From NCBI GenBank assembly GCA_964408775.1, contig CAYPAP010000001.1, positions 153,524 to 217,523 on the forward strand: 64,000 nucleotides of DNA, in the 5' to 3' direction. A model generated the notes under the pieces. It saw only the letters and a program-made list of their open reading frames with translations. It made no database searches and was not told the origin of the DNA. The translations under genes and the position numbers were made by a program. This DNA is from an uncultured Gammaproteobacteria bacterium. Lineage in GTDB: Bacteria; Patescibacteriota; Patescibacteriia; Patescibacteriales; UBA12465. Positions 15,884 to 59,831 of the stretch are shown piece by piece (the stretch's first letter is position 1; every line of letters starts with the position of its first letter).

Positions 15884-15943
15884 ACACACTTTAAGATTAT
15901 TGATAATTTTTAAGAGACTCGGGATGTTCGGGGTAAAATAAAA

Positions 15944-42057: not shown

Positions 42058-44769
42058 CTACAATTTCTTAGCTTTTTGCACCTCAACCTCTCCCTTTTTA
42101 TTAATAAAAATAGCATCTCGACGATTAAGACTTTTGGTTAAAATTAGGTTAGCAATTTCATTTTCAATTTTATCTTGCAATAAGCGACGCAAAGGACGAG
42201 CACCAAACTTGGGATCATAGCCAGCTTTGGCTAAAACCAATAGACCATCATCGTCATACAATAAACCAATTCCCTTCTTGGATAAATTCTTTTCAATTTT
42301 CTTAACCATTAATTTAGAAATAGACAAAACATTTTCCAAAGTTAAGGGCTTGAATACTATAATTCCATCAAAGCGATTAATAAGCTCGGGACGCATTACC
42401 TTGTTTAAATGCTCATCTATTAAGGCCTGCTTGATAACAGCCATTTCGGTATTACTTTTAACAGCGTCTTGAATAAATAAAGCTCCGGCATTGGATGTGG
42501 CAATAATAATAGAGTTAGTAAAATTAATAGTTCTTCCCTGTCCGTCGGTTAAACGACCATCATCCAAAATTTGCAAGAATAGATTTAAAATATCAGGATG
42601 CGCTTTTTCAATTTCATCAAATAATATTAAAGAGAAAGGTTTTTTGCGGACAGCTTCTGTCAAATAGCCCAAGGTACCGTCGACATCACCCAACATTTTT
42701 TTAACGCTATCAGCTAATTGATATTCACTCATATCTAAACGTATCATATACTTTTCATCACCAAAATAAATATCAGAAACAGTTTTGGCTAATTCGGTTT
42801 TACCAACCCCAGTGGGGCCTAAGAATAAAAAACTAGCAATAGGGCGACTACCCTCTCTCATGTCAGCTCGAGCTCGACGCAAGCTTCCAGCAACCGCGAC
42901 AACAGCCTCCTCTTGTCCAATCATCCTTTCATGAATTTTCTGCTCTAAGTTCATTAGTTTTTCACTCTCGGACTCACTAACCTTAGAAACCAATATTCCG
43001 GTAATTTCACTAACAACCTCAGCAATATCATTTTTGGTACATATTTTTTTCTCTGGATCCTTGGCAGCTAATTTAGAATTTCTAACAGCCGCCGCCTTAA
43101 TTATGTTAACAGCTTTTTCTGGTAGAAACTTGTCATTAATATATTTAGAGGACAGTTTAACTGTTTCTTCGATAGAATTATAATCAAAATAAATACCATA
43201 CTTATTTTCCAACCAAGAAACTTTACTTTCCAGCATACAAATAGCGTCATTTATTTCTGGTTCGGCCACATTAATTGTAGTCATAGCGCTAGCAATAGCC
43301 CGACCCTCTAAATAACGAGAGTAATTTTCACTACTGACGGAAGCCAGGCAATATATTCCTTGGCGACTAAGAGTTTCGGCTAAAACTTCTGATAACTCTA
43401 GACTCTCCTCTGAGCCAGAAGATATACCCATCATATTCTCAATATTTTCAATAAACAAAATAATATTTTTAGATTTTTGCATCTCTCCAATAATTGAAAG
43501 CAGTCGCTCTTGAGCCTGGGCTGGATTAGACCCACTTATTAAACGAGAAACATCAAGCTCTACTAAGCGCTTGTCTTTTAAAAAACTGGGTACCTCTTCT
43601 TTAACCATTAGCTGTGCTAGCCCCTCTATGATAGATCTCTTGCCAACACCAACATGGCCAACTAATAAAACTCCGTTTTGTCCGCCCTCAAAAGCTTCAA
43701 AAATTTGGCGAACCTCCTTATCGCGAGAAACACAAATCTCAAAATAGCCATACTTGGCCATAACTGTCATGTCACGAGAAAAATGATCAATAGTAGGAGT
43801 GGCAACGGCTGTATAAGCCTTGTTCATGTTACCACCAGGCTTAAGACGAGCCATTTTTCGAAAAACTTTATAATCAGCCATCATTTTTTCATTGATTCTA
43901 AACCAATTTACAGCATTTTCAATTTTATCCTGAGAAATTTCTAGCTCATAAAGTATATCTTTTAGAACAGGATTACGATGATAACAAAATAAAATAATAT
44001 TTAAGACATTAATACTAGGATGACGATTAAAGTAAGCGTCGGAAAACGCTGATAATAGTATTTCCTGAACATGATCTGATAAATTAATTTTGTCCCCCTG
44101 ATTTTCTTTTTTATTATCAGCTAAATATTTTTTTAATAAACTTGTCAGCTTATCAACGCTAACATTTAACCTAACAAATAGACTGCTAACAACAGGAGAA
44201 TAAAGAAGATTCCAAAAAAGATGAATAGTGCTGACCTCCTTTTGCCTTAATTTATGAGCCAATAAATATGAATTTTCTAAAATAATCAAAAAATCATCGC
44301 TCAAAGTTTTGTAAACATCGATTCTAGGAATTTTTTTATAATCAATAACCTGATTATTACTATTTTTCTTTTCTTTAATGTTCTTTATTTTATTTAAAGA
44401 AGCCTTCTTCTCACTCATTCTATAAATAATAAACATTAGAAAAATTAATGAGATCAAGAAGACTAAAATTAAGGGATGATCGCTCTTATAAAATAAAATT
44501 AATTCCTCTGGCCTATAGTTTAAGAGGTCTATATTTAAGTAAACCCAAAAAAGCAGAGATAAAACACCAGCTATAGAGAAAACATAAGCTGTTAAATTGA
44601 CAATTTTATCAACCCTGGCCTTAGCACGGTGTAAAAGTATTAGCGATTTTTTAAAACTAGGAGCAAAATACAAAAGACGACCCAAAAAAACGGCTCCGAC
44701 TTTATTCTTAGAGATTTTAATAAAATCATCTTCCTGAAAAACAATTGGTTCTAATAAGTCATTTCTCAT
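42058..44769 (-). CDS. Membrane-anchored ClpB/ClpC-like AAA+ paralog with degenerate NBD1 and no M-domain
   Basis: Two N-terminal TM helices and Clp_N-like repeats. NBD1 has Walker A GHVGVGKRS and Walker B ILFIENIEN (both non-canonical). NBD2 is canonical ([30 protein letters not shown]). Confidence 0.8.
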   Translation of the reverse strand: MRNDLLEPIVFQEDDFIKISKNKVGAVFLGRLLYFAPSFKKSLILLHRAKARVDKIVNLTAYVFSIAGVLSLLFWVYLNIDLLNYRPEELILFYKSDHPLILVFLISLIFLMFIIYRMSEKKASLNKIKNIKEKKNSNNQVIDYKKIPRIDVYKTLSDDFLIILENSYLLAHKLRQKEVSTIHLFWNLLYSPVVSSLFVRLNVSVDKLTSLLKKYLADNKKENQGDKINLSDHVQEILLSAFSDAYFNRHPSINVLNIILFCYHRNPVLKDILYELEISQDKIENAVNWFRINEKMMADYKVFRKMARLKPGGNMNKAYTAVATPTIDHFSRDMTVMAKYGYFEICVSRDKEVRQIFEAFEGGQNGVLLVGHVGVGKRSIIEGLAQLMVKEEVPSFLKDKRLVELDVSRLISGSNPAQAQERLLSIIGEMQKSKNIILFIENIENMMGISSGSEESLELSEVLAETLSRQGIYCLASVSSENYSRYLEGRAIASAMTTINVAEPEINDAICMLESKVSWLENKYGIYFDYNSIEETVKLSSKYINDKFLPEKAVNIIKAAAVRNSKLAAKDPEKKICTKNDIAEVVSEITGILVSKVSESESEKLMNLEQKIHERMIGQEEAVVAVAGSLRRARADMREGSRPIASFLFLGPTGVGKTELAKTVSDIYFGDEKYMIRLDMSEYQLADSVKKMLGDVDGTLGYLTEAVRKKPFSLILFDEIEKAHPDILNLFLQILDDGRLTDGQGRTINFTNSIIIATSNAGALFIQDAVKSNTEMAVIKQALIDEHLNKVMRPELINRFDGIIVFKPLTLENVLSISKLMVKKIEKNLSKKGIGLLYDDDGLLVLAKAGYDPKFGARPLRRLLQDKIENEIANLILTKSLNRRDAIFINKKGEVEVQKAKKL

Positions 44770-44777
44770 ATTAAAAA

Positions 44778-45140
44778 TTAAAAAATCTTGTTAAAAATTA
44801 ATACAACCACCACCACTGGGAAAGCTATCCAGGCAAAAACCCCTAGTAAGCTTAAAAGAATAAAGAAAATAAAAGCAATGAAGCGGAAAATTATTTGAAA
44901 AAGTCTAATAAAAAAGCTGATAGCCCGGCTAGTAAAATCTCTTTGCCCGTACATTGGGACAAAAATATTTTTTAGCCAAACACCAGCTCCAATAACCATC
45001 CAGCGCTCCTGTAAAAATAGACCCAAACTCTTTAAAAGGCGCAATAAACCAGTACTATACCACCAAAGGGGAAAATACAAAAAATCTAACACTATTTGAG
45101 CCGAAATTTTACCTAAATAAAATAAAAAATGATTACTCAT
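44778..45140 (-). CDS. Small polytopic membrane protein (120 aa), co-operonic with the ClpB-like paralog
   Basis: 3-4 hydrophobic segments; 8-bp gap to the downstream AAA+ gene. No family recognised. Confidence 0.5.
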   Translation of the reverse strand: MSNHFLFYLGKISAQIVLDFLYFPLWWYSTGLLRLLKSLGLFLQERWMVIGAGVWLKNIFVPMYGQRDFTSRAISFFIRLFQIIFRFIAFIFFILLSLLGVFAWIAFPVVVVVLIFNKIF

Positions 45141-45183: not shown

Positions 45184-45212
45184 ATATTAGCAAAAAAAGA
45201 GTAATTTGGCAA
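45184..45212 (-). promoter_or_regulatory. Sigma70-like promoter for the 120-aa / ClpB-like operon
   Basis: Minus strand TTGCCA-17 nt-TAATAT. The -10 lies inside the 12-bp palindrome CTAATATATTAG (45179-45190). Confidence 0.45.
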
Positions 45213-45221
45213 AATTTCGCT

Positions 45222-47867
45222 TTATTTAACTAATACTGAAATATTATCCTTTGCCCCAACATCCAATAGAACCTTATCGCCGTCCTTAACCTTGCCCTCT
45301 ATTATGTTCAGGGCTAATTCGTCTAAAATCATGCTCTGAATAACACGTTTTAAAGGTCGAGCTCCAAAAGCAGGATCGTATCCTTTTTCAGCTAAATGCT
45401 TTTTAACTTTAGGGCTAATTTTAATGGCAATATTCTTATTTTTTAATCTTTGCTCTACTTTATTAAGCTCTAGATCTATAATCTTTTCTAATGATTTTTT
45501 ATTAAGATTTTTGAAAATAACGATTTCATCAATCCTATTTAAAAATTCTAGCTTAAAGTGATCCCGTAAAATTTCATCAATCTTCTCCTTCATTTCTTCT
45601 TGGCGATATTTAATATTTTGCTCTTCGTTCTCACCACCAGAAAAACCAATGGAATACTGTTTGATAACCTCATTGCCTAAGTTTGATGTCATTATTATTA
45701 TTGTATTTTTGAAATTAACCTTACGCCCCTTAGAATCAGTTAAAACCCCATCATCTAATATTTGAAGTAAAATGTTGAAAGTTTCAGGATGAGCCTTTTC
45801 AATTTCATCAAACAAAATAACACTATAGGGGCGGCGACGGATTTTATCGGTTAACTGACCCCCTTCATCATGACCAATATATCCTGGAGGAGATCCGATT
45901 AGCTTAGCAACGCTATGTTTTTCCATAAACTCACTCATATCTAGTCGTATTAAAGCATTTTCATCATTAAACATAAATTTAGCCAAAGTCTTGCCTAATT
46001 CGGTTTTACCAACTCCAGTTGGACCAACGAAAAGAAATGACCCAATAGGCCTCTTTTCCTCATTAATACCAGCTCGACTGCGACGGATGGCGTTAGACAC
46101 CGCCGTGATAGCCTCATCCTGGCCAATTACTGACCTAGTTAGCTCTTCTTCAGCCCGAGCTAATTTTTGGATCTCGCTTTCTAGCATTTTATTAACCGGG
46201 ATTCCAGTCCAGCGAGCCACAACCTTAGCAATATCCTCTTCGTCCACCTCTTCTTTCAAGATGTGATGACCTTTCTTCTGAATTTTAATCAAGTCCTCCT
46301 GTTGCTTTTTAACCTCTTTCTCTAATTCTGGAATAAGTGCATATCTAATTTCAGCTACCTTGGTTAAGTCATCTCCTCGACGTTCAATGATATCGGCCTC
46401 CATCTTCAATTCATCAATCTTGCGCTTTGATTCTCTGATTTTAGAAATTATTTCTTTTTCATTATTCCAATGAATTTCTAATTGATTGCATTTTTCTTTT
46501 AGCTCGGCTAGCTCTTTATTTATTTTTACCTTCTTGCTAGAGTTATTATCCTTCTCCTTGCTAATCAAGCCAGCTTTAACTATTTCTAAGCGCTTAATTT
46601 CCCTTTTCATATTATCAAGCTCTTCGGGCATGGAATCTATTTCCATACGCAAAGCTGAGGTAGCCTCGTCCATTAAGTCAACCGCCTTGTCTGGTAAAAA
46701 ACGATCTGTGATATAACGACTAGAAAGCTTAGCGGCTGATACCAGCGCTTCATCAGTTATGCGAACCCCGTGATGAACCTCATACTTTTCTTTTATTCCT
46801 CGTAAAATAGAAATGGCATCCTCGATACTGGGTTCAGCTACATAAATTGGCTGAAAACGTCGCTCTAGGGCTGCATCTTTTTCAATATATTTTTGATATT
46901 CCTTGGTAGTAGTTGCCCCAATAGTTCTCAGCTCACCTCGAGCTAAAGCTGGTTTTAACATGTTAGAAGCATCCATAGATCCTTCACTAGCACCAGTTCC
47001 AACTAAAGTATGAAGTTCATCAATAAATAATATTATTTTTCCTTCTTGGGCCTTAATAGTTTTTAAAACTGATTTTAGCCTATCTTCGAACTCACCCCTG
47101 AATTTTGCACCAGCAACTAGCGCCCCTAAATCTAATGAAACTACCTCTTTGTTTTTCAGCATCTCTGGAACATCACCACTGACGATTCTCTGAGCTAAAC
47201 CCTCGGCAATAGCAGTTTTTCCTGTTCCAGCTTCACCAATTAGAACTGGGTTATTTTTAGTACGACGAAGAAGGACCTGCATAATGCGGCGAATTTCAGT
47301 GTCACGACCAATAACTGGATCTAATTTTTCTTGGCGGGCAAGATCTGTTAAGTTTATTGTATATTTTTCTAAAGTTCTAAATTTATTTTCTGGCTCAGGA
47401 TCAGTAATCTTCTGAGAGCCACGTAATTCCTTTAATATTTCTAAAACCTGGTTATATTCTATTTTAAATCCTAACAAAACTCTTTGAGCCGGGGTGTTTA
47501 CACCAATTAAGGCCAGGAAAATGTGCTCAGTGGAAATAAATTCATCGCCCATGCGATCGGCTTCTTTTTTAGATCTATCAAAAATAGCCACCACTTCGCC
47601 AGTTCCCTGCACTGCTTGGACTGAGGCAAAGTCGGCGTTATTGGTTTTAACCTTGGGCAATCTTTTTAATTCATTACTAGTTAAATTTTCAATTAGCTCT
47701 GGATCAATTTTTATTTTATCCAAAACCACTCGTACCAAGCTATCATTTTGCTGGATTAAGGCCAATAATAAATGGAGGCCCTCGATGTATTGCTGACCAA
47801 AATCAGAGGCAATAACCTGGGCATTAATTATCGTTTCTTGAGACTTGTTGGTAAATTTATTAAACAT
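45222..47867 (-). CDS. clpB: Chaperone disaggregase ClpB
   Basis: Clp_N repeats, NBD1 [12 protein letters not shown] / [12 protein letters not shown], a ~130-aa coiled-coil M-domain, NBD2 [12 protein letters not shown] / [11 protein letters not shown]. Start placed at MFNKFT because the upstream ATG lies inside the CIRCE-like operator. Confidence 0.9.
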
Positions 47868-47898
47868 ATATTTATTGTAAATTATTAATGATTTTAAA

Positions 47899-47925
47899 TT
47901 AGCAGTCATAATGTCTGACTGCTAA
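47899..47925. promoter_or_regulatory. CIRCE-like inverted repeat (candidate HrcA operator) on the clpB promoter
   Basis: TTAGCAGTC-N9-GACTGCTAA versus CIRCE consensus TTAGCACTC-N9-GAGTGCTAA: 8/9 per arm with a compensatory change. Starts 2 nt downstream of the clpB -10. Confidence 0.65.
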
Positions 47926-51307: not shown

Positions 51308-53203
51308 TTAATCTTCATCTTCTAGGCTATCAGCAAATTCTTTTTTTGCTTCTTCAATTTCTAATAATTGCTTTGGATCTGAGGTTATTAATTGATCTTC
51401 GCTGTAAGAGGCCACAACTTTAATGGCCACATGCTTGTTTCCGGCAAAAAATATTCCCTCTCCTAAACCACACTCTAACAATAAATATTTTTCTCCCTCG
51501 GTTAATAGGAAAGTTTTTTGCACTAAATCAATAGCAGCTGGAGATTGTTTTAATAAAATTTGTAAAGAAGAATTGGTAACAATAGCCTGGCCATAAGGAG
51601 AGGTTAAAAAGTCATTAACATCCTGTGTAATAGTGACTACTCCCAAATAATATTTACGACATCTTTTTACTAAAGCAAATATAAATTTAGCACTATCTTC
51701 GTTTTGCATCATCCACCAGGCCTCATCAATAACTAAAATTCTTTTTTTAACCTCACTTCTAACAACATTCCAAATATAATTAACAATAGTATAAATAGCA
51801 ATTGGTCGAAGCTCATCTTCTAAATCACGCACTGAAAAACAAACTAATTGATTATTCATCTCAACGTTAGTAAGATTGTTCAACAACCCAGAAAAAGTTC
51901 CTTCAGTGTACTTTTTTAATCTAAGAGCTAATTCATTTCCACCTTCCATTCCCTCTAAAACCTGTTGGAAATCTGATAAGGTGGGCGGATCGATTTGAGA
52001 TAAATCTGAATCAGGAGTAATATCTTTTTTGGCGTAAGTCTCTAATAGAGCTCTGTCAACCACAGAATCTTCATCATGATTTAAGTCACCAATCATTAAA
52101 CGAACCAGACCCTTTAAAGTTATAACTGCACTTCTAATAATATCCTTGGGCTTGGCCTCTCCGCCAATAGAACGAGGCAAGTCAAATGGATTAAGCTTGC
52201 TTTCACTGGACAAGGAAATATTAATATATGTTCCTCCTACTGCTTCCGATAAATATTTATATTCATATTCGGGATCAATAATAATAACATCGGTACCCAT
52301 CATTAAGGAGCGCAAAACTTCTAGCTTAATACAGTAACTTTTACCGGCTCCCGAGGTTGCGAAAACTACCGAGTTGGCATTTTGTAAACTAAACCTATCA
52401 AATAAAATTAAGCTATTATTATGTCGATTAATTCCATATAAAATACCTTTGTCACTAGTCAGCTCACTGGAAATAAACGGAAAAGATGAGGCAATAGGAG
52501 ACGAGTTCATGTTAAAGGTTATATAAAGCTCGTCACTTCCTAGTGGTAAAGTAGAATTAAATCCCTGCTCAGTTTGATAAAAACCCCTCTTGGAATAAAC
52601 CAAGCGTGAGCCAAAAATATCCTCCACTTGATCAGAAAGACGATCTAGTTGCTCTAAGTTGTCGGCGTAAATAGTCACATAAAGAGAAAATTGAAAAAAC
52701 TTTTCAGTTCCCTGAGTTAAGGCATCTCTTAGATATTCAATATCGCGCAAGGCTGTTTCTCGAATAGGGTCACGAGGGGCACCTTTTTCTGAATCACTGA
52801 CAATTTGAGCTTCTAAATTACCTACCCTATTTTTTAATTGCTTTAAGATGATAGCGCTCTTAACGGGGTAAAAAAACATCGCCACATCAAAACATTCATT
52901 TAAGTTAATGATAGGGGCAAACCAGCCGACACTAATATAACGTGGATAACTGACAACAAAAATTGTTCGAACAAATTTTTGCCCTAAACTTAAATAAGTT
53001 GGATTAACCTTTAAACTAGCCGGAGATATTAAGTCTCGGACTGACAAAACTCCACGTCTAAAAGCTTTTTCTTCTTCAATTAGTTCCTGAGTTATCTCTA
53101 AGTCTTCCCTTCTAACTCCAATACGACTAAGCTCTTCATCTAAAAGACCCTTCTTTTTTTTCTTTGATTCACCCAAGCTTTCTTGTTTTTTTAAATCTAT
53201 CAT
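51308..53203 (-). CDS. VirB4/TrbE-family type IV secretion ATPase
   Basis: Walker A FATSGAGKSY, IIIDPEYEY, Walker B RILVIDEAWWMM, plus an N-terminal VirB4-type domain (FVVSYPRYISVGW). Confidence 0.85.
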   Translation of the reverse strand: MIDLKKQESLGESKKKKKGLLDEELSRIGVRREDLEITQELIEEEKAFRRGVLSVRDLISPASLKVNPTYLSLGQKFVRTIFVVSYPRYISVGWFAPIINLNECFDVAMFFYPVKSAIILKQLKNRVGNLEAQIVSDSEKGAPRDPIRETALRDIEYLRDALTQGTEKFFQFSLYVTIYADNLEQLDRLSDQVEDIFGSRLVYSKRGFYQTEQGFNSTLPLGSDELYITFNMNSSPIASSFPFISSELTSDKGILYGINRHNNSLILFDRFSLQNANSVVFATSGAGKSYCIKLEVLRSLMMGTDVIIIDPEYEYKYLSEAVGGTYINISLSSESKLNPFDLPRSIGGEAKPKDIIRSAVITLKGLVRLMIGDLNHDEDSVVDRALLETYAKKDITPDSDLSQIDPPTLSDFQQVLEGMEGGNELALRLKKYTEGTFSGLLNNLTNVEMNNQLVCFSVRDLEDELRPIAIYTIVNYIWNVVRSEVKKRILVIDEAWWMMQNEDSAKFIFALVKRCRKYYLGVVTITQDVNDFLTSPYGQAIVTNSSLQILLKQSPAAIDLVQKTFLLTEGEKYLLLECGLGEGIFFAGNKHVAIKVVASYSEDQLITSDPKQLLEIEEAKKEFADSLEDED

Positions 53204-53241
53204 ATTTTAATTTTACTTTTTTACTTAACAATTATCTAAGC

Positions 53242-53922
53242 TTATGTTTCGACCTGAATTTTATTAATATCTACTAATTTTTGATTTTTAGATGTTTCTG
53301 GGTTATAAGAGTTATAATACAATTCTATTAACTCCTGTGTTTTCATCTGCTTAACATCAACCCCCAAAGACATTAGGGCCGAAGAAACACTATCAACTCT
53401 TCGAGATAAATTCTCTTTATATTTGGCAAATTTAGCTTCTTTCAGGCGCAAAATAGACGCTGGCTTAAAGGTTTCTGAAAACTGAGACATAAAACTTTTA
53501 TGCTTATCGGAAAAAGGGCTATAAGGAACTACCACAAAAAACTTTTTATTCATAATTTTACCAATAGAAACTAATTCCTTAATATATTCTATATATTCAG
53601 CTGTCTGAGCCTTGAGCAACCTATTAGTCTGAGATCTTTCCTTCCCTTTTAAATATTCAATATAATTATCAACGTTTAAATCACGAGATTGGATAACAAT
53701 TTGAATCGGAGTGCTAATATTATTCAAAAAACTAATATAAGAAGATATAATCGCATTTTGCTCATCTTCACTTTTTAAGGCAAAATTAATACTAGAAACC
53801 AACAAAACTGCTCGTATGGTTCCGTCTCGCATAACTACGACATCATCTTTTATTTCTAAAATGTCTAGATATTGCTGAGTGGACACGCTAGAAATTTTTT
53901 TACCTTTCTTTTTTTCAGCCAT
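53242..53922 (-). CDS. Hypothetical T4SS-associated protein (226 aa)
   Basis: No TM. The layout YLDILEIKDDVVVMRDGTIRAVLLVSSINFALKSEDEQ loosely parallels the N-terminal domain pattern of VirB4 proteins. Assignment is tentative. Confidence 0.4.
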   Translation of the reverse strand: MAEKKKGKKISSVSTQQYLDILEIKDDVVVMRDGTIRAVLLVSSINFALKSEDEQNAIISSYISFLNNISTPIQIVIQSRDLNVDNYIEYLKGKERSQTNRLLKAQTAEYIEYIKELVSIGKIMNKKFFVVVPYSPFSDKHKSFMSQFSETFKPASILRLKEAKFAKYKENLSRRVDSVSSALMSLGVDVKQMKTQELIELYYNSYNPETSKNQKLVDINKIQVET

Positions 53923-53943
53923 TATATTTTAAATTATATTTAA

Positions 53944-54390
53944 TTAATTATCTTCTAAATTAATTTCCGAACTATCTTCCCCCTTATATCTACCCTTGGT
54001 ATCAATAATAAGGGACAACTTGGTTAACTTTTCTTTAGAGAAGTATTTATCAGGTGTTATAACCTTTTCATATTCAACCTGTTTATCTTCTTTGTTTTCG
54101 AAACTAGTAATTTTATGATTCCATATTCTTAAACCAGGTTTTTTGAGGGACTGAATTAAGTTTAGCACAAAATAGTGGAAAGGGCGACCATTTATCTTTA
54201 AAAAAGCAAAAATACCGGCAAATGCAAAAACTAAAATACTTAAAATAACAAAGGTACTAAAATCAAAAACTTTATAAAAAATAAAAATAACCAAAGATGT
54301 GGCTAAAAATATCAAAAACTGCCTGGCCGTAATTGGGCCAATGATTTTAGGTTCCACATCGATAAATTGAGGTACAGTAAACTGTTGCAT
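53944..54390 (-). CDS. PrgI/VirB3-like two-TM T4SS protein
   Basis: MQQFTVPQFIDVEPKIIGPITARQFLIF followed by two TM helices; position immediately upstream of the VirB4 region. Confidence 0.55.
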   Translation of the reverse strand: MQQFTVPQFIDVEPKIIGPITARQFLIFLATSLVIFIFYKVFDFSTFVILSILVFAFAGIFAFLKINGRPFHYFVLNLIQSLKKPGLRIWNHKITSFENKEDKQVEYEKVITPDKYFSKEKLTKLSLIIDTKGRYKGEDSSEINLEDN

Positions 54391-54402
54391 AATTAACTTT
54401 AA

Positions 54403-55836
54403 TTATAAAACTAAAGACTTATTAAACCTTATCAGAGCATTAATCTCCTCGCGACTTAAATATTCTTTCTTGGAATTTTTTAAATTTTCAATAACTTTAT
54501 CGACACTAATACCCTCTTCACTGGATTTGGAAAATATTTTTAAATATATCTTGTAAACCGGGCTCTGTCGCCAAGCCTTAATACCCTCTAACATCTTGCC
54601 ATAGTCAATCTCCTCTAAAATCTCTAATTTTTGTCTAATTTTCTCAAATGATTCTTCTGGATTATTAGACAATCGACGGAAGTTTACTAGATCCATATAC
54701 TTGATTTCATCAATAGGTCCAGTCGTTTTAATTCTCCTGACATCAGCCATTTTTATCTTACCACTGCTATCAGGCTTGATATCCACCTTGCCAGCCATAG
54801 ACCTTGTTTTTATGGGGACATCTATCAGACCAGACAAAAGATCATCTTCTTTGTCTTCTTTGTCGGACTTTATTTCCTTAGGCGCTTCCTCTTCTTTTTT
54901 GCTTTCGGTAACAGCAACTTTGCTCTCGGCTTTTTGTGAGAAACTTTCTATCTTTTCAAGGTCGTTTTTAATTCCTTCAAGCTTACCTTTAACTTTTTCT
55001 GGTATGTCTTCTACAACCATTGGAAAGTCTGACTCTGGAATAATCGCCGGAACTAAAGGAGCTAAAAGCTCGGGTTCTTTTTTCTTAGCAACAACCTTAG
55101 AATCCATTGAATCTGAAATATTTCCATGTCCCAACTTATTAATTTTAGACAAAATATCGCCTTCAACCCTTAAATCTTTCTTGGCTTTTTCATACTCTCT
55201 TTTTTCTGATTCTTGGGCCATTATAAAAATACTATCTACAGTTTTATCCGTTAAACCAAATCCTCCCTCGGATAAATTAGCAGTAAAGATTTGTCGAGCC
55301 GAAAAACGATCTTTAATTCCACGCAAATATTTATCTAATAATACCAAAAATTTAATCTTTTTGTCCTCGTCTTTAAATCTAATGCCCAGGGAGCGAATAA
55401 TTTCTGCGGCCACTGAATTGGTTTTATTCTTAGCAACCGGAAATTCTTCTTTTCTCTCACTAATAGATTTGGAGCTCTCAATATCTTTTTTTTCTGTTTC
55501 CATAACACTTTCCAGGTTGGCTGGAATATCTGGTTTTTTAGTAGGCGTAACCAATGGTAATATTCCTAGATAATCTCCAGCTCTAGAAAATATTTTATTC
55601 TCCAAGGTCTTGGCCAATTTTTCTGATTTTTCTTGTCCTAGTTTAAATTCAGTAAAAAGAGTTAAGGGCAACATCTCAACACTGACATCTTTAACCATAA
55701 CCCGCATAATCAAAGAAGCTAGTTCAATATTATATTCGCCCTCTAAGTCTTCAATAATTTTAAGAGCCTCCGGATCAGAGACCGAAGCTTTTAAGTCAGA
55801 ACTTAGGGCATTAAATTTATCTAAATAATCAAACAT
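54403..55836 (-). CDS. Hypothetical soluble Lys/Glu-rich protein (477 aa)
   Basis: No TM; a helical N-terminal module shared in pattern with the 382-aa neighbour; C-terminal W.QSPVYKIYLKI...LSREEINALIRFNKSL. Confidence 0.5.
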   Translation of the reverse strand: MFDYLDKFNALSSDLKASVSDPEALKIIEDLEGEYNIELASLIMRVMVKDVSVEMLPLTLFTEFKLGQEKSEKLAKTLENKIFSRAGDYLGILPLVTPTKKPDIPANLESVMETEKKDIESSKSISERKEEFPVAKNKTNSVAAEIIRSLGIRFKDEDKKIKFLVLLDKYLRGIKDRFSARQIFTANLSEGGFGLTDKTVDSIFIMAQESEKREYEKAKKDLRVEGDILSKINKLGHGNISDSMDSKVVAKKKEPELLAPLVPAIIPESDFPMVVEDIPEKVKGKLEGIKNDLEKIESFSQKAESKVAVTESKKEEEAPKEIKSDKEDKEDDLLSGLIDVPIKTRSMAGKVDIKPDSSGKIKMADVRRIKTTGPIDEIKYMDLVNFRRLSNNPEESFEKIRQKLEILEEIDYGKMLEGIKAWRQSPVYKIYLKIFSKSSEEGISVDKVIENLKNSKKEYLSREEINALIRFNKSLVL

Positions 55837-55842
55837 ATAAAA

Positions 55843-56991
55843 TTATTTTTTTCTTTTTTTTATTTCACTTTCAATTGCTTTTCTTTCTAAAGATTTGTTA
55901 GGATATTTTTTAAGCATTTCTTGCAAGACACTTAACTCCTGATCGGCTAAATTCATCGGAACAATAGTTTCTGGTTTTTCCACCTTTTTAGTTTTTTCTG
56001 TTTTTTCTTTTTCGATAGAAGGGCTCATCTCGGCTTTTCGACTTACCTCTTTTTTGTCTACTGAGATTTTTTTTATTTTTTTTTCAATAAACTCCGAATC
56101 TCTATCAACAGGGATTATTTCCCAATTCTCAAAAGGGGTGTTGCTCATAGAATCAGGAAAAAAGGACAGACTTCTGTAGGTTTTTAATACTTTTCGTAAT
56201 ATTTTTATCTCCTTATCTTTTAAAGCTTCTTTTATTGCTGATGATGTTAAATATTTAGCCAAAACTATATTGCTAAAACCTTCACTACCATGCTCGGAAA
56301 TAAAATGTTTTATCCAATTGGCAATAGTTGGTTCCTGCTCCTTGCCAGATAAAATAATTTTTTTACTTCCCAATTTTTCCTGGTTATTCATGAAGGCTTT
56401 AATAAATTTATTCAAAGAATCTTTTTTATTGATTAACAAGTAAATTAAAGAGCCGTTTATCTTTCTAGGGCCAGAAATATCACTATCTTTATAAACGTTC
56501 ATTAAATCTTTTTCCAGCATGTGCGAAATTAAAGCTTCCTCTTCTTTCGGAGAAAAATTTTTGTCTAAATCTTCTAAAACTTCGTTTAAATTATCTAAGT
56601 TTTTATCCTCCACTAGATCATTAAATTTTTCAATGTATTCTTTATAGTCATCAATTTTTCCTTTATATTTCTTTATGGCAGAAGAAATATCTTTTTTAAT
56701 AAATAGCTCTACTGGAAAAAACAATTTACCCAAGAAATCAGAAGAAAAATTATTAATTTTATCTTCGGTAATATTTTTGATATTATCAGAAATTAATTTA
56801 GGTAATAAATCGGCTTGAAAATCGGAAATGAAAAAATCGTAGATTACTTCATCTAAATCATCTCTAATAATATCGTAGGTAGAAATTAAATCTCGGCAAG
56901 CGTCGGCACTAGGGCGAGAAGAGAAATAAAGGCTAACCTCTTTTGGAAGTTCTTCTATTTTTTTTAGAAATTGTGATATTTTGTCGTCCAT
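55843..56991 (-). CDS. Hypothetical soluble protein (382 aa)
   Basis: No TM and no recognisable family. Tightly packed in the operon (6- and 12-bp gaps). Confidence 0.5.
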   Translation of the reverse strand: MDDKISQFLKKIEELPKEVSLYFSSRPSADACRDLISTYDIIRDDLDEVIYDFFISDFQADLLPKLISDNIKNITEDKINNFSSDFLGKLFFPVELFIKKDISSAIKKYKGKIDDYKEYIEKFNDLVEDKNLDNLNEVLEDLDKNFSPKEEEALISHMLEKDLMNVYKDSDISGPRKINGSLIYLLINKKDSLNKFIKAFMNNQEKLGSKKIILSGKEQEPTIANWIKHFISEHGSEGFSNIVLAKYLTSSAIKEALKDKEIKILRKVLKTYRSLSFFPDSMSNTPFENWEIIPVDRDSEFIEKKIKKISVDKKEVSRKAEMSPSIEKEKTEKTKKVEKPETIVPMNLADQELSVLQEMLKKYPNKSLERKAIESEIKKRKK

Positions 56992-57003
56992 GTAAATATT
57001 TTA

Positions 57004-59817
57004 TTAAGAATTAACTTTTTCCCAAATTTTCTTAAGAACACCTCTTTGTTGTGGAGATTCGTCAAATTGACATTTATCTGTTATTTTATTCATTTTTTTA
57101 CGAAAATCGTCCAAATTTGTAGCGGTCTTGAGCTCGACTAATTTACCATGTCTAGAAAGAGCTTCCTTTAGGCTTTCAAGTCCTCCAATTGAATTAGATA
57201 AATCTTGAAATTGAAAAAACTTAGCTTTTTTAAAATACTTTTCTAAATCTGCATCTTTAATCGGCTTAGTTGATTTGTTCATGATAGATAATTTATTATC
57301 AGCTTTAAAGGTTCCGGCTCTTTCTAGGGATAACTCGATTTCATCTTGTCTTTCGTTAGTTTGCCTATCATACATACTAACAAAGTTGCTATCGGTCATG
57401 TCTTCGGCTAAGTTAGGCATAATCAAATCAAGCGAATCCTGCCCATCAATACTACTAATAGATATTTTTTGATCAATAATATTACGGGCAATTTTATCCT
57501 TTGTTTTCTCATGTTTTAATTTTACTTCATCACTTCTATTGTCAGACCCACTCTTAGGAGCGGCAGTAGAATGTAAGTCAGTAAATAATCTAGACAATTG
57601 TTGGTAATTACTAGCTAAAGAAGCGTCTAGTTGATCTAAAACCCGACCATCATAGCCATAGGAATCTACAATTTTATCTTTTTCAACTCTGGCCTCCTCT
57701 TGACTTAGTTCCTTTCTTTCTAGCAGAAGCATGGTGGCCGCTGTTCTAGAATGGTTACTTTTAGAATAATCATCTTTAACAGCCCTCAACTCCTCTTCTT
57801 TTAATCCTTTTAACTTATCTTTTTCTTTTGATATTTGAGAGCTATTGTAATTTGAAGCTAAATCTAAAGAATCAGAGCCAGCATTAATTAGTCTATTTCT
57901 TACAGCTGTGCCAGCTATACCGCCATAGGCAGCTCCGGCTACTCCGCCCAATGCCCCCAAAGGTCCACCTAAAAATGAGCCAAAGGCCCCTCCGGCGACA
58001 ACTGCACCCCATTTGCTAATATTTTCGACTTTCTTCCTGCTGTCAGATAGATCTTTGTGGCCCGACTCTATATCCTTAGTCTTAGCTTCGATATCTTGAA
58101 CATTTGAGTCAATCTCAGCTTTTTTGATTGTTATATCATTGTCTTTATCAACTCTAGCTTGAGGCAAGTTTGTACTTACATCATTTAATGAATTTAAATT
58201 TTGCCCAGTAACACTATTAAAGTCATTCAAAATTTCGTTCTCTTTTTCTTGTATTCTTTGATTGTAGTCGCTCTCCATATCTGTTTTTTCTGTTCTTAGT
58301 CTGCCAGATAAAGCGAAATCACCCGCATTTTGAGCATTTGTTATCTGTTGGTCAAAATCACGTGACTTAACTCCTTTTTCATTTTCTAAATCTGAAATCA
58401 TTCTTAGATCACCCTCGATTCTAACTAACTTATCTTTGTCTTTCTCTAATTTACCTAAGTCGGAACTTAATTGTGATCCCTGGTCTTTTAGAACTCCCTT
58501 TTCTTGCTCGGCGCTCTTAACACTTTCTTCTCTTTCCTTTATTTTTTTATCGGAAACCCCAGCCATAGCTCTAAATGGCTTGGATATAAAATTACCTATA
58601 GCTTGCGCCGGCTTAGCGATAACTGCCTCCTTTACTCGTCCTTCAGCTTTTAATAAAGCTCCGGCATCTCTTTGGGCCAAATCTTGGCGCTTGGATTCTT
58701 TTTGTTGTTTATATGACTTATAAGCATTCTCTGCTCTCTGAATACCGGTAGCCCTCTTACTCATCTTTAGAGCTCCGGTACCCATGGCTTGTAATTTGCC
58801 CATTCCCTTGCCAGCGACCTTGCCAGCAACTCCACCCATCTCTTGGGCTATCATCATTCCACCTAAAAGCATGCCAATGGAAATGATATATTTAATAATA
58901 TTCTCAGGGGTCCCAGCCTCACTTCCTGCCACCTTTACTTCCTCTTCGCTCTCCTCCGGAGTCATTTCTTTTATGGACTCGGCACTATTACCAGAACCCA
59001 TAGAAGCAAACGACAACCAAATAAAGAAGGCTAAAACTGGACCAATAATTAAATTTTTAGAGAAATCTGACCACCATCTCTGAGAATATTGTTGACCCTG
59101 AGGAAAAGAGGCTAATAAATAGGCTAAAGGAGATAAAACCACATAGATCCAAATCATTACTATCCTCATTACTAGCATAACCAACATTGTCAAAATAACT
59201 ACACAGGCAATAACCACAAAGATAAGCGCCAATATAACAGACCCGATAATTGATTCAAAGGTTTGTTGCGCTGTTCTATCATCGCTGTCCCCGAAGCTCA
59301 ATATGTCAGTTATGCCCAACATTTCTGTTAAGTTTGCTCCGGCCATGTCTTTAAAGGCGTTGACAAAGGTAAGCATGATAACCTGAGTGAAATCGATAAA
59401 GACACCACAAATTAATTTAGAGAAGTTTATAAGAACAGCCATTATCACTAATTTTGGTAACCATGTTTTTAGATTGTAACTTTCTATTCTTAGAATAGAA
59501 GCAAAGGCAATAACAAGAAGAATCAAAACAAAAAACATGTTGCACAAGTCTCTCACCACCACCCAGCCGTTTGTTACTGCCGGAGAATGAATGAAATTGC
59601 TATAGGAGGCTACTTTCACTAAAATGTTTAAGAAAACGACGGTCAACTTACCAAAGAGAGCAATGAAGGGAAATATTATCCAACCCAGAACCTTAGCTAC
59701 TCCATTTCTAACATCGGCATGGCTAGCTTCTGGAATTAAAAGGAAAATCATTACCAAAAAAAAGACCGGCAAAGCTATTGCTAAAATCTTTTTCTTGTTT
59801 TTTAATATTTTTTTCAT
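57004..59817 (-). CDS. VirB6/TrbL-like polytopic membrane protein with a ~600-aa C-terminal extension
   Basis: Signal-like N-terminus, ~8 hydrophobic helices in the first ~330 aa (e.g. LINFSKLICGVFIDFTQVIMLTFV), then a coiled-coil-type charged region and a Gly-zipper segment GAVVAGGAFGSFLGGPLGALGGVAGAAYGG. Confidence 0.55.
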   Translation of the reverse strand: MKKILKNKKKILAIALPVFFLVMIFLLIPEASHADVRNGVAKVLGWIIFPFIALFGKLTVVFLNILVKVASYSNFIHSPAVTNGWVVVRDLCNMFFVLILLVIAFASILRIESYNLKTWLPKLVIMAVLINFSKLICGVFIDFTQVIMLTFVNAFKDMAGANLTEMLGITDILSFGDSDDRTAQQTFESIIGSVILALIFVVIACVVILTMLVMLVMRIVMIWIYVVLSPLAYLLASFPQGQQYSQRWWSDFSKNLIIGPVLAFFIWLSFASMGSGNSAESIKEMTPEESEEEVKVAGSEAGTPENIIKYIISIGMLLGGMMIAQEMGGVAGKVAGKGMGKLQAMGTGALKMSKRATGIQRAENAYKSYKQQKESKRQDLAQRDAGALLKAEGRVKEAVIAKPAQAIGNFISKPFRAMAGVSDKKIKEREESVKSAEQEKGVLKDQGSQLSSDLGKLEKDKDKLVRIEGDLRMISDLENEKGVKSRDFDQQITNAQNAGDFALSGRLRTEKTDMESDYNQRIQEKENEILNDFNSVTGQNLNSLNDVSTNLPQARVDKDNDITIKKAEIDSNVQDIEAKTKDIESGHKDLSDSRKKVENISKWGAVVAGGAFGSFLGGPLGALGGVAGAAYGGIAGTAVRNRLINAGSDSLDLASNYNSSQISKEKDKLKGLKEEELRAVKDDYSKSNHSRTAATMLLLERKELSQEEARVEKDKIVDSYGYDGRVLDQLDASLASNYQQLSRLFTDLHSTAAPKSGSDNRSDEVKLKHEKTKDKIARNIIDQKISISSIDGQDSLDLIMPNLAEDMTDSNFVSMYDRQTNERQDEIELSLERAGTFKADNKLSIMNKSTKPIKDADLEKYFKKAKFFQFQDLSNSIGGLESLKEALSRHGKLVELKTATNLDDFRKKMNKITDKCQFDESPQQRGVLKKIWEKVNS

Positions 59818-59831
59818 TTTTATTTAAAAAT

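What the first reader, a model, noticed from the sequence alone, without database searches (positions are those of the whole stretch)
42058..45140. Membrane-anchored ClpB-like paralog with an inactivated NBD1 and no M-domain, paired with a small membrane protein next to canonical clpB
Seen: the 903-aa protein starts with two TM helices, then Clp_N-like repeats and two AAA+ modules.
- NBD1 has Walker A GHVGVGKRS (Arg where Thr/Ser is required) and Walker B ILFIENIEN (EN replacing DE).
- The neighbouring true ClpB has GEAGTGKT and ILFIDELH at the same positions.
- NBD2 of the paralog is canonical.
- The ~130-aa coiled-coil M-domain of ClpB is absent; the NBD1-NBD2 linker is short.
- A 120-aa polytopic membrane protein lies 8 bp upstream, and the pair has its own promoter (TTGCCA-17-TAATAT).

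Established: ClpB needs both ATPase rings and the M-domain for DnaK-coupled disaggregation.

Inference: this is a neofunctionalised, membrane-tethered unfoldase or extractor. It might handle membrane-protein quality control or power an envelope machine, possibly working with the 120-aa partner.
Basis: partly seen in the sequence, partly recalled or inferred. Interest (0 to 1): 0.6.

Follow-up and report, generated by a model that had tools for sequence, protein, structure and literature searches.

The report
Membrane-anchored Clp ATPase with small partner
This is a real two-gene module, conserved across several candidate phyla of tiny uncultured (Patescibacteria) bacteria and not found described in four literature searches: a membrane-tethered relative of the Clp/Hsp100 protein-unfolding ATPases with a dead first motor ring, no substrate-gripping tyrosine in either ring, and a conserved 120-residue membrane partner.

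Summary
The 903-aa ORF (42058-44769, minus) has two hydrophobic helices, a divergent Clp_N domain and two AAA+ modules. It has no M-domain. The 120-aa gene lies 8 nt upstream.

NBD1 is degenerate family-wide:
- Catalytic Glu is Asn in 113 of 114 relatives.
- Both Arg fingers and the pore-loop Tyr are absent.
- Walker A Thr/Ser is Arg/Lys in the window's clade.

- NBD2 is catalytically canonical, but its pore loop is 5 residues shorter and lacks the Tyr (GYVG becomes GTLG).
- The protein scores closer to ClpC than to the neighbouring ClpB.
- That ClpB carries an invariant IGF insertion at the ClpP-docking position, which the paralog lacks.

The small gene sits directly upstream in 77 of 80 genomes, and in 7 of 7 loci from Uhr-, Magasanik- and Komeilibacteria-type genomes. 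Some relatives add an N-terminal CxxCxGxG zinc ribbon. Flanking genes vary between proteostasis (clpB, dnaK operon) and envelope or division (WecA-like GT4, ftsL/ftsW).

Best reading: a ClpP- and DnaK-independent, single-motor membrane remodelling ATPase that works with its small partner. The substrate is unknown. It is a new variant of a known kind.

The parts
44778..45140 (-). Gene for the 120-aa small membrane partner. It is predicted as a helical hairpin (helices 5-50 and 69-119) with an invariant tip loop N-x-x-x-P-M-Y-G-Q-x-D and an F-P-x-W-W-Y motif.
   Evidence: ORF. No Pfam, NCBIfam or PADLOC hit. 178 close homologues. 466 representatives at 50% clustering. Alignment and invariant columns. 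AF2 pLDDT 91.7. No structural match in the PDB. Directly upstream of the paralog in 77 of 80 loci.
42058..44769 (-). Gene for the 903-aa membrane-anchored Clp/Hsp100-type AAA+ protein.
44650..44769 (-). N-terminal cytosolic beta-rich segment (residues 1-40). It occupies the position of a 2x CxxCxGxG zinc ribbon present in some relatives. There are no Cys residues here.
   Evidence: AF2 strands 16-20, 23-28 and 31-34. Zinc-ribbon motifs in L052, L062, L063, L064, L072, L074, L082 and L083. The Pfam match to DnaJ_CXXCXGXG is only E=0.07.
44536..44604 (-). Predicted transmembrane helix 1 (residues 56-78).
   Evidence: Hydropathy 2.03. Helix 41-78 in the model. G68 and W75 conserved.
44416..44478 (-). 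Predicted transmembrane helix 2 (residues 98-118). It is followed by a Lys-rich stretch, which is consistent with a cytoplasmic C-terminus.
   Evidence: Hydropathy 2.70. Helix 99-125. F104, F113 and Y116 conserved.
43852..44322 (-). Divergent Clp_N-like N-domain (residues 150-306).
   Evidence: Pfam Clp_N E=0.0025, below cut-off. hhalign against ClpB N-domains E=4.6e-5 over 147 columns. All-helical in the model. Foldseek alignments span full-length ClpC.
43735..43851 (-). Family-specific, highly conserved linker (residues 307-345): ARLKPGxNMNxAYTAxATPT(L/I)DxFSxD(L/M)T.
   Evidence: 72% mean pairwise identity, higher than the N-domain and NBD1. Invariant K310, M315, Y319, T320 and P325.
43045..43734 (-). 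Pseudo-ATPase NBD1 (residues 346-575). Walker A GHVGVGKRS is at 43633-43659 and Walker B ILFIENIEN at 43435-43461. It has no Arg fingers and no pore-loop Tyr. It carries a conserved acidic loop, GSxESL(D/E)LSEVL.
   Evidence: 66.7% mean pairwise identity shows purifying selection.
42070..42972 (-). Catalytically canonical NBD2 with the D2-small domain (residues 600-900). The pore loop GDVDGTLGY (42649-42696) is shortened by 5 residues and lacks the canonical Tyr. There is no ClpP-docking tripeptide.
   Evidence: Pfam AAA_2 and ClpB_D2-small. Motifs 114 of 114 canonical. Pore loop. No [ILVMA]G[FL] in 114 of 114.
45184..45212 (-). Sigma-70-type promoter of the small-paralog pair: TTGCCA, 17 nt, TG-extended TAATAT.
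   Evidence: Scan hit of 9 of 12, not significant alone. -35 and extended -10 conserved in 16 same-strand relatives. Those relatives usually have a clpB terminator hairpin just upstream, which the window lacks.
45222..47909 (-). Context: the neighbouring ClpB, with a full M-domain and an IGF-bearing insertion at the ClpP-docking-loop position.
   Evidence: TIGR03346 1208.8 bits against a cut-off of 1232.1. M. tuberculosis ClpB 923 bits in one stretch. IGF in 55 of 55 relatives. Adjacent to the pair on the same strand in the window's clade and divergent in the 44-51% identity clade.
47899..47925 (.). Context: CIRCE (HrcA operator) inverted repeat overlapping the clpB start codon. It belongs to clpB, not to the pair.
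   Evidence: Found upstream of clpB in 15 of 16 same-strand and 40 of 40 divergent loci, at a median of 27 nt from the clpB start.
40073..41623 (-). Context: WecA-like GT4 fused to QueH. It lies downstream of the pair in nearly all Falkowbacteria-type loci. A GT4 alone is found downstream in Uhrbacteria-type loci.
   Evidence: Pfam. NCBIfam WecA 109 bits and MraY 77 bits, both below cut-off. Synteny.

Best explanation
What it is (shown). A conserved two-gene operon of the Falkow-, Magasanik-, Uhr- and Komeilibacteria lineages of Patescibacteria. The large product is a class-I Clp/Hsp100 AAA+ protein held at the cytoplasmic face of the membrane by an N-terminal two-helix anchor.
- The first ring (NBD1) is a conserved pseudo-ATPase. 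It has no catalytic Glu and no Arg fingers, and its Walker A is variable.
- The second ring (NBD2) keeps every catalytic residue.
- There is no M-domain, no ClpP-docking loop, and no aromatic pore-loop residue at the canonical position in either ring.
- The small product is a membrane-inserted helical hairpin with an invariant polar tip loop.

How it most likely works (inferred).
- The protein forms a hexamer in which NBD1 is a structural assembly ring and NBD2 is the only motor.
- It acts without DnaK coupling and without ClpP.
- The Clp_N domain recognises clients. In ancestral forms a DnaJ-like zinc ribbon may help.
- The small partner forms a membrane complex with the anchor helices.
- NBD2's ATP cycle is used to remodel or dislodge membrane-associated proteins, plausibly components of envelope or division machinery. 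With non-aromatic pore loops this would be low-grip rather than processive.
For: Architecture and motifs.

Family-wide NBD1 degeneration together with 67% mean identity, which indicates a selected structural role.

NBD2 catalytic residues conserved 100%, with 81% mean identity, so the protein is an enzyme and not a relic.

No ClpP tripeptide and a fixed 37-residue loop in 114 of 114. M-domain absent.

Obligate pairing with the small gene:
- 77 of 80 loci, with intergenic gaps of a few nt or short overlaps.
- 7 of 7 loci from more distant lineages with otherwise different flanks.
- A conserved promoter upstream of the small gene.

Neighbours:
- WecA-like GT4 downstream in Falkow- and Uhrbacteria types.
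- Insertion between an ftsL-like gene and ftsW in the mraZ-rsmH cluster of Magasanik-type loci.
- clpB, or hrcA-grpE-dnaK-dnaJ, upstream in others.

Positive residues flank both TM helices on the N- and C-terminal sides (sequence), which is consistent with an in-in topology.
Against: - No experiment, no expression data and no multimer model; hexamer formation and the complex with the small protein are inferred.
- Loss of the aromatic pore-loop residue in both rings argues against classical threading. In ClpB, mutating the NBD2 Tyr abolishes disaggregation (established knowledge).
- Gene contexts are heterogeneous and could reflect inherited synteny in compact genomes rather than function.
- Two relatives (L063, L072) have no small gene next to the paralog.
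- TM topology rests on hydropathy and the positive-inside rule only.
Confidence: 0.45

Rival explanations
1. Non-threading switch or assembly factor, working like Torsin with its membrane cofactors. The NBD2 ATP cycle drives a conformational change that regulates or assembles a membrane complex. That complex would include the small partner and possibly envelope-synthesis or divisome proteins. No polypeptide passes through the pore.
For: - Aromatic pore-loop residues are missing in both rings across all lineages, and NBD2 loops in Uhr-, Magasanik- and Komeili-type members have no aromatic or bulky hydrophobic residue at all.
- The partner is an obligate small membrane protein with an invariant polar tip loop.
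- A family-specific linker and an acidic NBD1 loop are strongly conserved, suggesting fixed protein-protein contacts.
Against: - Unlike Torsin, NBD2 keeps its own Arg finger and sensor-2, so no cofactor is needed for catalysis.
- A Clp_N domain, and a zinc ribbon in some members, suggest client binding.
- In the Falkowbacteria group the hydrophobic position of the pore loop (Leu in 101 of 114) is retained, and non-aromatic loops can still contact substrate in p97/Cdc48 D1 (own knowledge).
Confidence: 0.25
2. Motor of a membrane translocation device. The 12 anchor helices of a hexamer, together with the partner's helices, would form a channel. The ATPase would feed or gate cargo across the membrane, working like HSP101 in PTEX or like Bcs1.
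For: - Two TM helices per subunit plus a co-conserved membrane partner.
- No protease coupling.
- Envelope-related neighbours.
- A VirB4/TraG-like ATPase lies 6.5 kb away in the window.
Against: - The VirB4-like cluster is not syntenic outside the window's clade.
- No secretion-system components are conserved next to the pair.
- The loop between the TM helices is short (about 20 residues), and nothing indicates a pore.
- The lack of gripping pore loops argues against translocating unfolded chains.
Confidence: 0.1
3. Membrane adaptor or hetero-oligomer partner of the neighbouring ClpB. It would recruit that disaggregase, and through its IGF loop possibly ClpP, to the membrane.
For: - clpB is adjacent in about 56 Falkowbacteria-type loci, even after an inversion of clpB relative to the pair.
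- The domain layout and oligomerisation domains are shared.
- In the window no terminator separates clpB from the pair.
Against: - Adjacency to clpB is absent in Uhr-, Magasanik- and Komeili-type loci.
- Most relatives have a clpB terminator and a separate conserved promoter lacking CIRCE before the pair.
- NBD2 is itself fully catalytic.
- NBD1 identity to ClpB is only 32%.
Confidence: 0.08
4. A decaying, functionless duplicate of a Clp ATPase.
For: NBD1 motifs are eroded and variable. The Walker A position after Lys is S, T, R, K, N or G.
Against: - Intact ORFs of constant length (about 890-930 aa) occur in at least 174 species.
- NBD2 shows 81% mean identity and NBD1 67%.
- All NBD2 catalytic residues are invariant.
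- The operon partner and promoter are conserved.
Confidence: 0.02

Closest known systems
ClpC / ClpA / ClpB (class-I Clp/Hsp100 double-ring AAA+ unfoldases)
   Same: - Clp_N-type N-domain, two AAA+ modules, AAA_lid_9, AAA_2 and ClpB_D2-small domains.
- Best PDB sequence and fold matches are ClpC and ClpB.
- Like ClpA it has no M-domain, and it aligns to ClpA in a single stretch.
   Different: - Two N-terminal TM helices.
- NBD1 lacks the catalytic Glu, the Arg fingers and the pore Tyr.
- The NBD2 pore loop is shortened and lacks Tyr.
- There is no IGF/IGL/LGF loop, unlike ClpA and ClpC.
- There is no M-domain, unlike ClpB and ClpC.
- All NCBIfam scores fall far below the family cut-offs.
ClpI of Actinomycetota (Jiang & Schmitz 2023, PMC10149685)
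   Same: A precedent for a phylum-restricted, bioinformatically defined extra class of double-ring Clp enzymes. ClpI has sub-classes with and without the ClpP-binding motif.
   Different: ClpI has intact ATPase modules and translocation motifs, a ClpC-length M-domain and no membrane anchor (abstract).
Torsin ATPases with the membrane cofactors LAP1/LULL1 (own knowledge)
   Same: Related to Clp/Hsp100 NBD2, membrane-associated, lacking aromatic pore-loop residues, and functionally dependent on small or transmembrane partners.
   Different: Torsins are single-ring, eukaryotic and ER-luminal. They lack their own Arg finger, which the cofactor supplies. Here NBD2 keeps its Arg finger and sensor-2. 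No sequence test of relatedness was done.
FtsH and Msp1/ATAD1 (membrane-anchored AAA+ extractors; own knowledge)
   Same: An N-terminal TM anchor places a hexameric AAA+ ring at the cytoplasmic membrane face.
   Different: These are single-ring classical-clade AAA proteins with aromatic pore loops, and FtsH carries an M41 protease domain. No such domain or loop is present here.
Degenerate structural rings of type-II AAA+ proteins (NSF D2, Pex1/Pex6 D1, p97 D1) and plant SMAX1/D53 (own knowledge)
   Same: One of two tandem AAA+ modules has lost hydrolysis and serves assembly or regulation. p97 D1 pore loops are also non-aromatic.
   Different: These belong to a different clade or are eukaryotic. 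None is a bacterial membrane-anchored Clp/Hsp100.

Membership tests
Clp/Hsp100 class I (double-ring) superfamily | Two tandem AAA+ modules, with an AAA_2-type second module and a ClpB_D2-small C-terminal domain | tested here: met
   Pfam AAA_2 5e-53, ClpB_D2-small 8e-20 and AAA_lid_9 3e-11. Foldseek against ClpC and ClpB gives E as low as 7e-55.
Clp/Hsp100 class I (double-ring) superfamily | Clp_N double-repeat N-domain | tested here: inconclusive
   Pfam E=0.0025, below the gathering score. hhalign against ClpB N-domains gives probability 69% and E=4.6e-5 over 147 columns. The fold alignment spans ClpC's N-domain.
ClpB (TIGR03346) | Long coiled-coil M-domain inserted in NBD1 | tested here: not met
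   About 135 ClpB residues (417-552) have no counterpart. The NCBIfam match is split into two stretches.
ClpB (TIGR03346) | Score above the curated equivalog cut-off | tested here: not met
   551.6 bits against a cut-off of 1232.1.
ClpB (TIGR03346) | Both rings hydrolytically competent (Walker B DE, Arg fingers) with pore-loop Tyr in both | tested here: not met
   In NBD1 the catalytic Glu is Asn in 113 of 114 and Arg fingers are present in 0 of 114. There is no Tyr in either pore loop at the canonical position.
ClpC / ClpA / ClpE (ClpP-coupled unfoldases) | [I/L/V]G[F/L] ClpP-docking tripeptide in the NBD2 surface loop | tested here: not met
   The tripeptide is absent from the window protein and from 114 of 114 relatives. 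One of the 75 locus-derived sequences has a single IGL, likely by chance.
ClpA (TIGR02639) | Score above cut-off and no M-domain | tested here: not met
   465.5 bits against a cut-off of 993.15. The no-M-domain architecture is shared.
ClpV / TssH (TIGR03345) | Score above cut-off and type VI secretion gene context | tested here: not met
   422.7 bits against a cut-off of 884.95. No T6SS genes were seen among the annotated neighbours.
FtsH | Single AAA module followed by an M41 zinc-protease domain | tested here: not met
   No Peptidase_M41 hit, and the architecture is double-ring Clp.
Anti-phage defence AAA+ proteins (PADLOC: DolB, PDC-M37B) | Full-length match and a variable, island-like context | tested here: not met
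   Hits cover only the generic NBD2 region. The pair is vertically conserved within housekeeping synteny.
Torsin-like AAA+ | Single ring lacking its own Arg finger, activated by a membrane cofactor | tested here: not met
   NBD2 Arg finger R799 and sensor-2 R858 are invariant and the architecture is double-ring. The resemblance is functional only.
DnaJ-type zinc finger (PF00684), for the N-terminal extension of some relatives | CxxCxGxG repeats matching the Pfam model | tested here: inconclusive
   Two CxxCxGxG-like motifs occur in L052, L062-L064, L072 and L074. L082 and L083 carry related CxxC...CxxC ribbons, of which only one L083 motif fits CxxCxGxG. The Pfam E-value is only 0.07. The motif is absent, with no Cys, in the window protein.

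The most novel reading that the evidence does not exclude
The pair may be a new kind of bacterial membrane AAA+ machine. A Clp/Hsp100 hexamer would have given up polypeptide threading, with both rings lacking aromatic pore loops. It would instead use its single active ring as an ATP-driven switch on a dedicated membrane partner. The partner's invariant PMYGQ-tipped helical hairpin would dock on, or insert into, the ring. This would be a prokaryotic counterpart of the Torsin-cofactor principle, and it might control envelope or division machinery in these ultra-small bacteria.
Probability: 0.15. Interest if true: 0.85.

Novelty: new variant of a known kind. Interest (0 to 1): 0.62.

Why it matters
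All characterised Clp/Hsp100 proteins are soluble. They grip substrates with pore-loop tyrosines, and they couple either to ClpP (ClpA, ClpC, ClpE) or to DnaK through the M-domain (ClpB). This family breaks all of those rules at once, yet it is strongly conserved across several candidate phyla with minimal genomes. In such genomes, retained genes are likely to matter.

It offers three things:
- A natural test of what a Clp ring can do without aromatic pore loops and with a dead D1 ring.
- A candidate for membrane or envelope proteostasis in organisms whose cell biology is almost unknown.
- A tractable target for heterologous expression and cryo-EM.

Public annotation calls these proteins 'ClpC', 'AAA family ATPase' or 'hypothetical'. 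That hides the distinction.

Tried and rejected
- Small protein homologous to the paralog's N-terminal region: hhalign probability 0.2%, rejected.
- Heat-shock co-regulation through CIRCE. CIRCE is real, but it sits about 27 nt from the clpB start. Most relatives have a clpB terminator and then a separate conserved promoter without CIRCE in front of the pair. The idea that the pair is a regulated member of the HrcA regulon is therefore rejected, though read-through from clpB is possible in the window.
- Recent tandem duplication of the neighbouring clpB: rejected, because the paralog scores lower against its neighbour than against ClpC or E. coli ClpB.
- Defence system: only generic NBD2 similarity in PADLOC.
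- Fold of the small protein: no PDB match with E<1. The afdb50 library was not available.
This is uninformative at genome level.
- Literature: four full-text searches found no description of a membrane-anchored Clp/Hsp100 or of this family. One search was rejected for syntax.
- MraY identity of the downstream GT4: the best match is WecA-like, and both scores are below cut-off.

Full report
**1. What is in the sequence**

Three co-directional genes lie on the minus strand:
- clpB, 47909->45222, 895 aa.
- A 120-aa ORF, 45140->44778.
- A 903-aa ORF, 44769->42058.

Eight nt separate the stop of the small ORF from the ATG of the large one. The window is AT-rich (31-39% G+C). Its genes are housekeeping: IF-2, RbfA, RadA, PolA, PNPase, PBP and MurD. 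All named relatives are Patescibacteria, mostly 'Candidatus Falkowbacteria'. The exact proteins exist in public assemblies without a name, or as 'ClpC'.

**2. Anatomy of the 903-aa protein**

Pfam finds AAA_2, ClpB_D2-small, AAA_lid_9 and a sub-threshold Clp_N. All NCBIfam Clp equivalogs score far below their cut-offs: ClpB 552 against 1232, ClpA 466 against 993, ClpV 423 against 885.

Hydropathy gives two strong segments, at 56-78 and 98-118. ClpB has none.

An AlphaFold2 model built on 78 family sequences has pLDDT 83 and pTM 0.71. It shows:
- three short strands at residues 16-34;
- long helices at 41-78 and 99-125;
- a helical N-domain at 150-306;
- two AAA+ modules.

Foldseek aligns about 800-830 columns to full-length ClpC. 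Profile-profile comparison of residues 140-310 with ClpB N-domains gives E=4.6e-5 over 147 columns.

Basic residues flank both hydrophobic helices on the sides away from the short connecting loop. This fits an N-in, C-in topology with the ATPase in the cytoplasm. This is an inference from the positive-inside rule.

**3. NBD1 is a conserved pseudo-ATPase**

In 114 full-length relatives:
- The catalytic Glu of Walker B is Asn in 113 and Asp in 1.
- The Walker B Asp is D in 66, E in 41 and another residue in 7.
- The two Arg-finger positions are never Arg.
- The pore-loop KYRGEFE is replaced by a Tyr-less S/D-P/A-x-Q/A-A-E/Q-E.
- The Walker A Lys is kept in 112, but the next residue is S or T in only 61 and R or K in 51.

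The R/K state is that of the window's clade. More distant lineages are further eroded: GTGRGT, GIGKGN, and Walker B PD, HN or ED.

NBD1 nevertheless retains 67% mean pairwise identity. It also carries a family-specific, nearly invariant acidic loop, GSxESL(D/E)LSEVL. It is therefore under selection as a structural or regulatory ring, not decaying.

**4. NBD2 is catalytically intact but its pore loop is altered**

Walker [10 protein letters not shown], Walker B DE, sensor-1 Asn, Arg finger and sensor-2 Arg are invariant in 114 of 114. The region has 81% mean identity.

The canonical pore loop is G(A/S)PPGY(V/I)G(Y/H)(D/E)xGGQLTE in ClpB and ClpC. Here it reads GDVDGTLGYLTE.
- The loop is five residues shorter.
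- The GYVG Tyr is replaced by Thr (78), Ala (18) or Ser (11).
- The remaining Tyr702 aligns with the residue after 'GG', at the start of the following helix, not with the pore Tyr.
- In Uhr-, Magasanik- and Komeilibacteria-type members the loop has no aromatic residue at all: NPAGLLTE, QKGTGILTE, AGTPGLLTE.

**5. No M-domain and no ClpP loop**

About 135 ClpB residues are missing between NBD1 and NBD2. ClpA, which has no M-domain, aligns in a single stretch.

The surface loop between sensor-1 and the Arg finger is a fixed 37 residues. It lacks any [ILVMA]G[FL] tripeptide in 114 of 114.

By contrast, the neighbouring ClpB carries a roughly 23-residue insertion, '[15 protein letters not shown]...'. 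That protein is clearly ClpB: 923 bits to M. tuberculosis ClpB in one stretch, including the full M-domain. The insertion has an IGF tripeptide at exactly this position, and the IGF is invariant in 55 of 55 relatives.

**6. Relationship to ClpB**

The paralog scores 367 bits against its neighbour ClpB. It scores 441 against S. aureus ClpC and about 419 against E. coli ClpB. It is an old, distinct lineage of class-I Clp ATPases, not a recent copy of the adjacent gene.

**7. The small protein**

It has no hit in Pfam, NCBIfam or PADLOC. It has 178 close homologues of about 120 aa. A profile search of 1.84 billion representatives finds 466 (276 at E<=1e-10), and almost all are 105-160 aa.

Invariant or near-invariant residues form three motifs:
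- F-P-x-W-W-Y-x-x-G;
- W-x-K-N-x-F-x-P-M-Y-G-Q-x-D;
- S-F-x-x-R-x-x-Q-x-x-x-R.

AlphaFold2 (pLDDT 92) predicts two long helices, 5-50 and 69-119, joined by the invariant loop. Only residues 98-116 are strongly hydrophobic, and residues 5-23 are weakly so.

A plausible reading (inference) is that the two ends are membrane-embedded. The middle would then form a cytoplasmic stalk tipped by the PMYGQxD loop. The model has no structural match in the PDB and no homology to the paralog's N-terminus.

**8. Co-occurrence and synteny**

A pattern scan of one genome per species found 174 genomes with a relative, and 80 loci were fetched. The small gene lies directly upstream on the same strand in 77 of the 80. 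One locus starts at a contig edge, and two (L063, L072) truly lack it.

Falkowbacteria-type loci share the order clpB, small, paralog, GT4-QueH. clpB is co-directional in the window's clade and divergent in the 44-51% identity clade.

Seven loci from the wider small-protein family were inspected. They carry names such as Magasanik-, Uhr- and Komeilibacteria. All seven have a TM-Clp paralog immediately downstream, with differing flanks:
- hrcA-grpE-dnaK-dnaJ-tgt-[pair]-GT4-DUF192;
- mraZ-rsmH-ftsL-like-[pair]-orf117-ftsW;
- tgt ... pilin-[pair]-glyS;
- clpB(divergent)-[pair]-GT4-QueH.

The ftsL-like assignment rests on NCBIfam E about 1e-7, below cut-off. The GT4 is WecA-like rather than MraY. 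Only the pair is invariant.

**9. Regulation**

The predicted promoter TTGCCA-17-TAATAT (45212-45184, with a TG extension) is a 9 of 12 match and is not significant alone. Its -35 and extended -10 are, however, conserved in 16 same-strand relatives.

In most of those relatives it is immediately preceded by a hairpin plus T-run that terminates clpB. The window's shorter 81-nt spacer lacks this hairpin, so read-through from clpB is possible here.

A CIRCE element (47899-47925) overlaps the clpB start. It is conserved in 55 of 56 loci, at a median of 27 nt from clpB and 129 nt from the small gene. In divergent loci a separate TTGTCA-17-TGCTATTAT promoter serves the pair. The pair therefore has its own promoter and is probably not under HrcA control.

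**10. Variation**

A sub-clade (L052, L062-L064, L072, L074) and the Magasanik- and Komeili-type proteins carry an N-terminal CxxC...CxxC zinc ribbon, with CxxCxGxG motifs in most, ahead of the TM helices. The Pfam match to DnaJ_CXXCXGXG is only E=0.07. The window protein has strands at that position but no Cys. This suggests loss of an ancestral zinc ribbon, which is an inference.

**11. Interpretation**

Shown:
- Architecture.
- Motif states.
- Conservation.
- Pairing.
- Promoter conservation.

Follows from established knowledge of Clp/Hsp100 proteins:
- No catalytic Glu and no Arg finger means NBD1 cannot hydrolyse ATP efficiently.
- No M-domain means no DnaK-coupled activation.
- No IGF-type loop means no stable ClpP docking.
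- Pore-loop Tyr residues are the main substrate-gripping elements.

Inferred:
- Hexamer formation.
- A complex with the small partner at the membrane.
- NBD2 as the sole motor.
- A remodelling or extraction role on membrane or envelope proteins.

The loss of both aromatic pore loops makes a non-threading, switch-like mechanism a serious rival.

**12. Novelty**

Four literature searches found nothing on such a protein. The nearest precedent for a new phylum-restricted Clp class, ClpI, has intact motors and no anchor.

I file this as a new variant of a known kind: a Clp/Hsp100 with a new architecture and a new obligate partner.

Noticed in passing
window 45222-47909 (minus), residues about 745-770 of ClpB: The neighbouring ClpB has a full M-domain and its best match is M. 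tuberculosis ClpB. It also carries a roughly 23-residue insertion with an IGF tripeptide ('QYSIGF') at the position of the ClpP-docking loop of ClpA, ClpC and ClpX. The IGF is invariant in 55 of 55 relatives. It looks like a natural counterpart of the engineered ClpP-binding ClpB ('BAP'). Its NBD1 pore loop is KFRG (Phe rather than Tyr). Whether these genomes encode ClpP was not determined.
   Followed up: partly
window 47899-47925: A CIRCE (HrcA operator) inverted repeat, TTAGCAGTCAGACATTATGACTGCTAA, overlaps the clpB start codon. It lies just downstream of a TTGACT-17-TATACT promoter (47955-47927). It is conserved upstream of clpB in 55 of 56 related loci.
   Followed up: yes
window 40073-41623 (minus): A 516-aa fusion of a WecA-like GT4 polyprenyl-phosphate sugar-phosphate transferase with the epoxyqueuosine reductase QueH. 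It is split into two ORFs in many relatives. In Uhr- and Komeilibacteria-type loci tgt (queuine tRNA-ribosyltransferase) lies just upstream of the pair, so queuosine genes flank the module in different lineages.
   Followed up: partly
window 13679-15889 (minus): A 736-aa protein fuses MiaB-like domains (UPF0004, radical SAM, TRAM) to a MiaA IPP-transferase domain. The two consecutive steps of tRNA-A37 ms2i6A modification are thus in one polypeptide.
   Followed up: no
window 51308-60893 (minus): A VirB4/TraG-like P-loop ATPase (631 aa) is followed by several large ORFs without Pfam hits (226-937 aa). This may be a type-IV-secretion or competence-like cluster. It is syntenic with dsbA-like, radA and clpB only within the window's clade.
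   Followed up: partly
L052, L062, L063, L064, L072, L074, L082, L083 (N-termini of paralogs): Some family members carry an N-terminal 2x CxxCxGxG (DnaJ-type-like) zinc ribbon ahead of the TM helices. L063 and L072 lack an adjacent small-protein gene.
   Followed up: partly
P0285 (414 aa, from the representative search): A high-G+C protein contains the small-protein domain (residues 161-258) followed by a sequence resembling the paralog's N-terminal strands and TM helices. It is probably a frameshift or mis-called fusion of the two adjacent genes. It indicates the same gene order in yet another lineage.
   Followed up: no
window 41724-42008 (plus): A 94-aa Lys-rich ORF on the opposite strand lies between the paralog and the GT4-QueH gene. 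It has no Pfam hit and is followed by a hairpin terminator at 42026-42050 that could act in both directions. Relatives of the window's clade have a 300-430-nt gap at this place.
   Followed up: no
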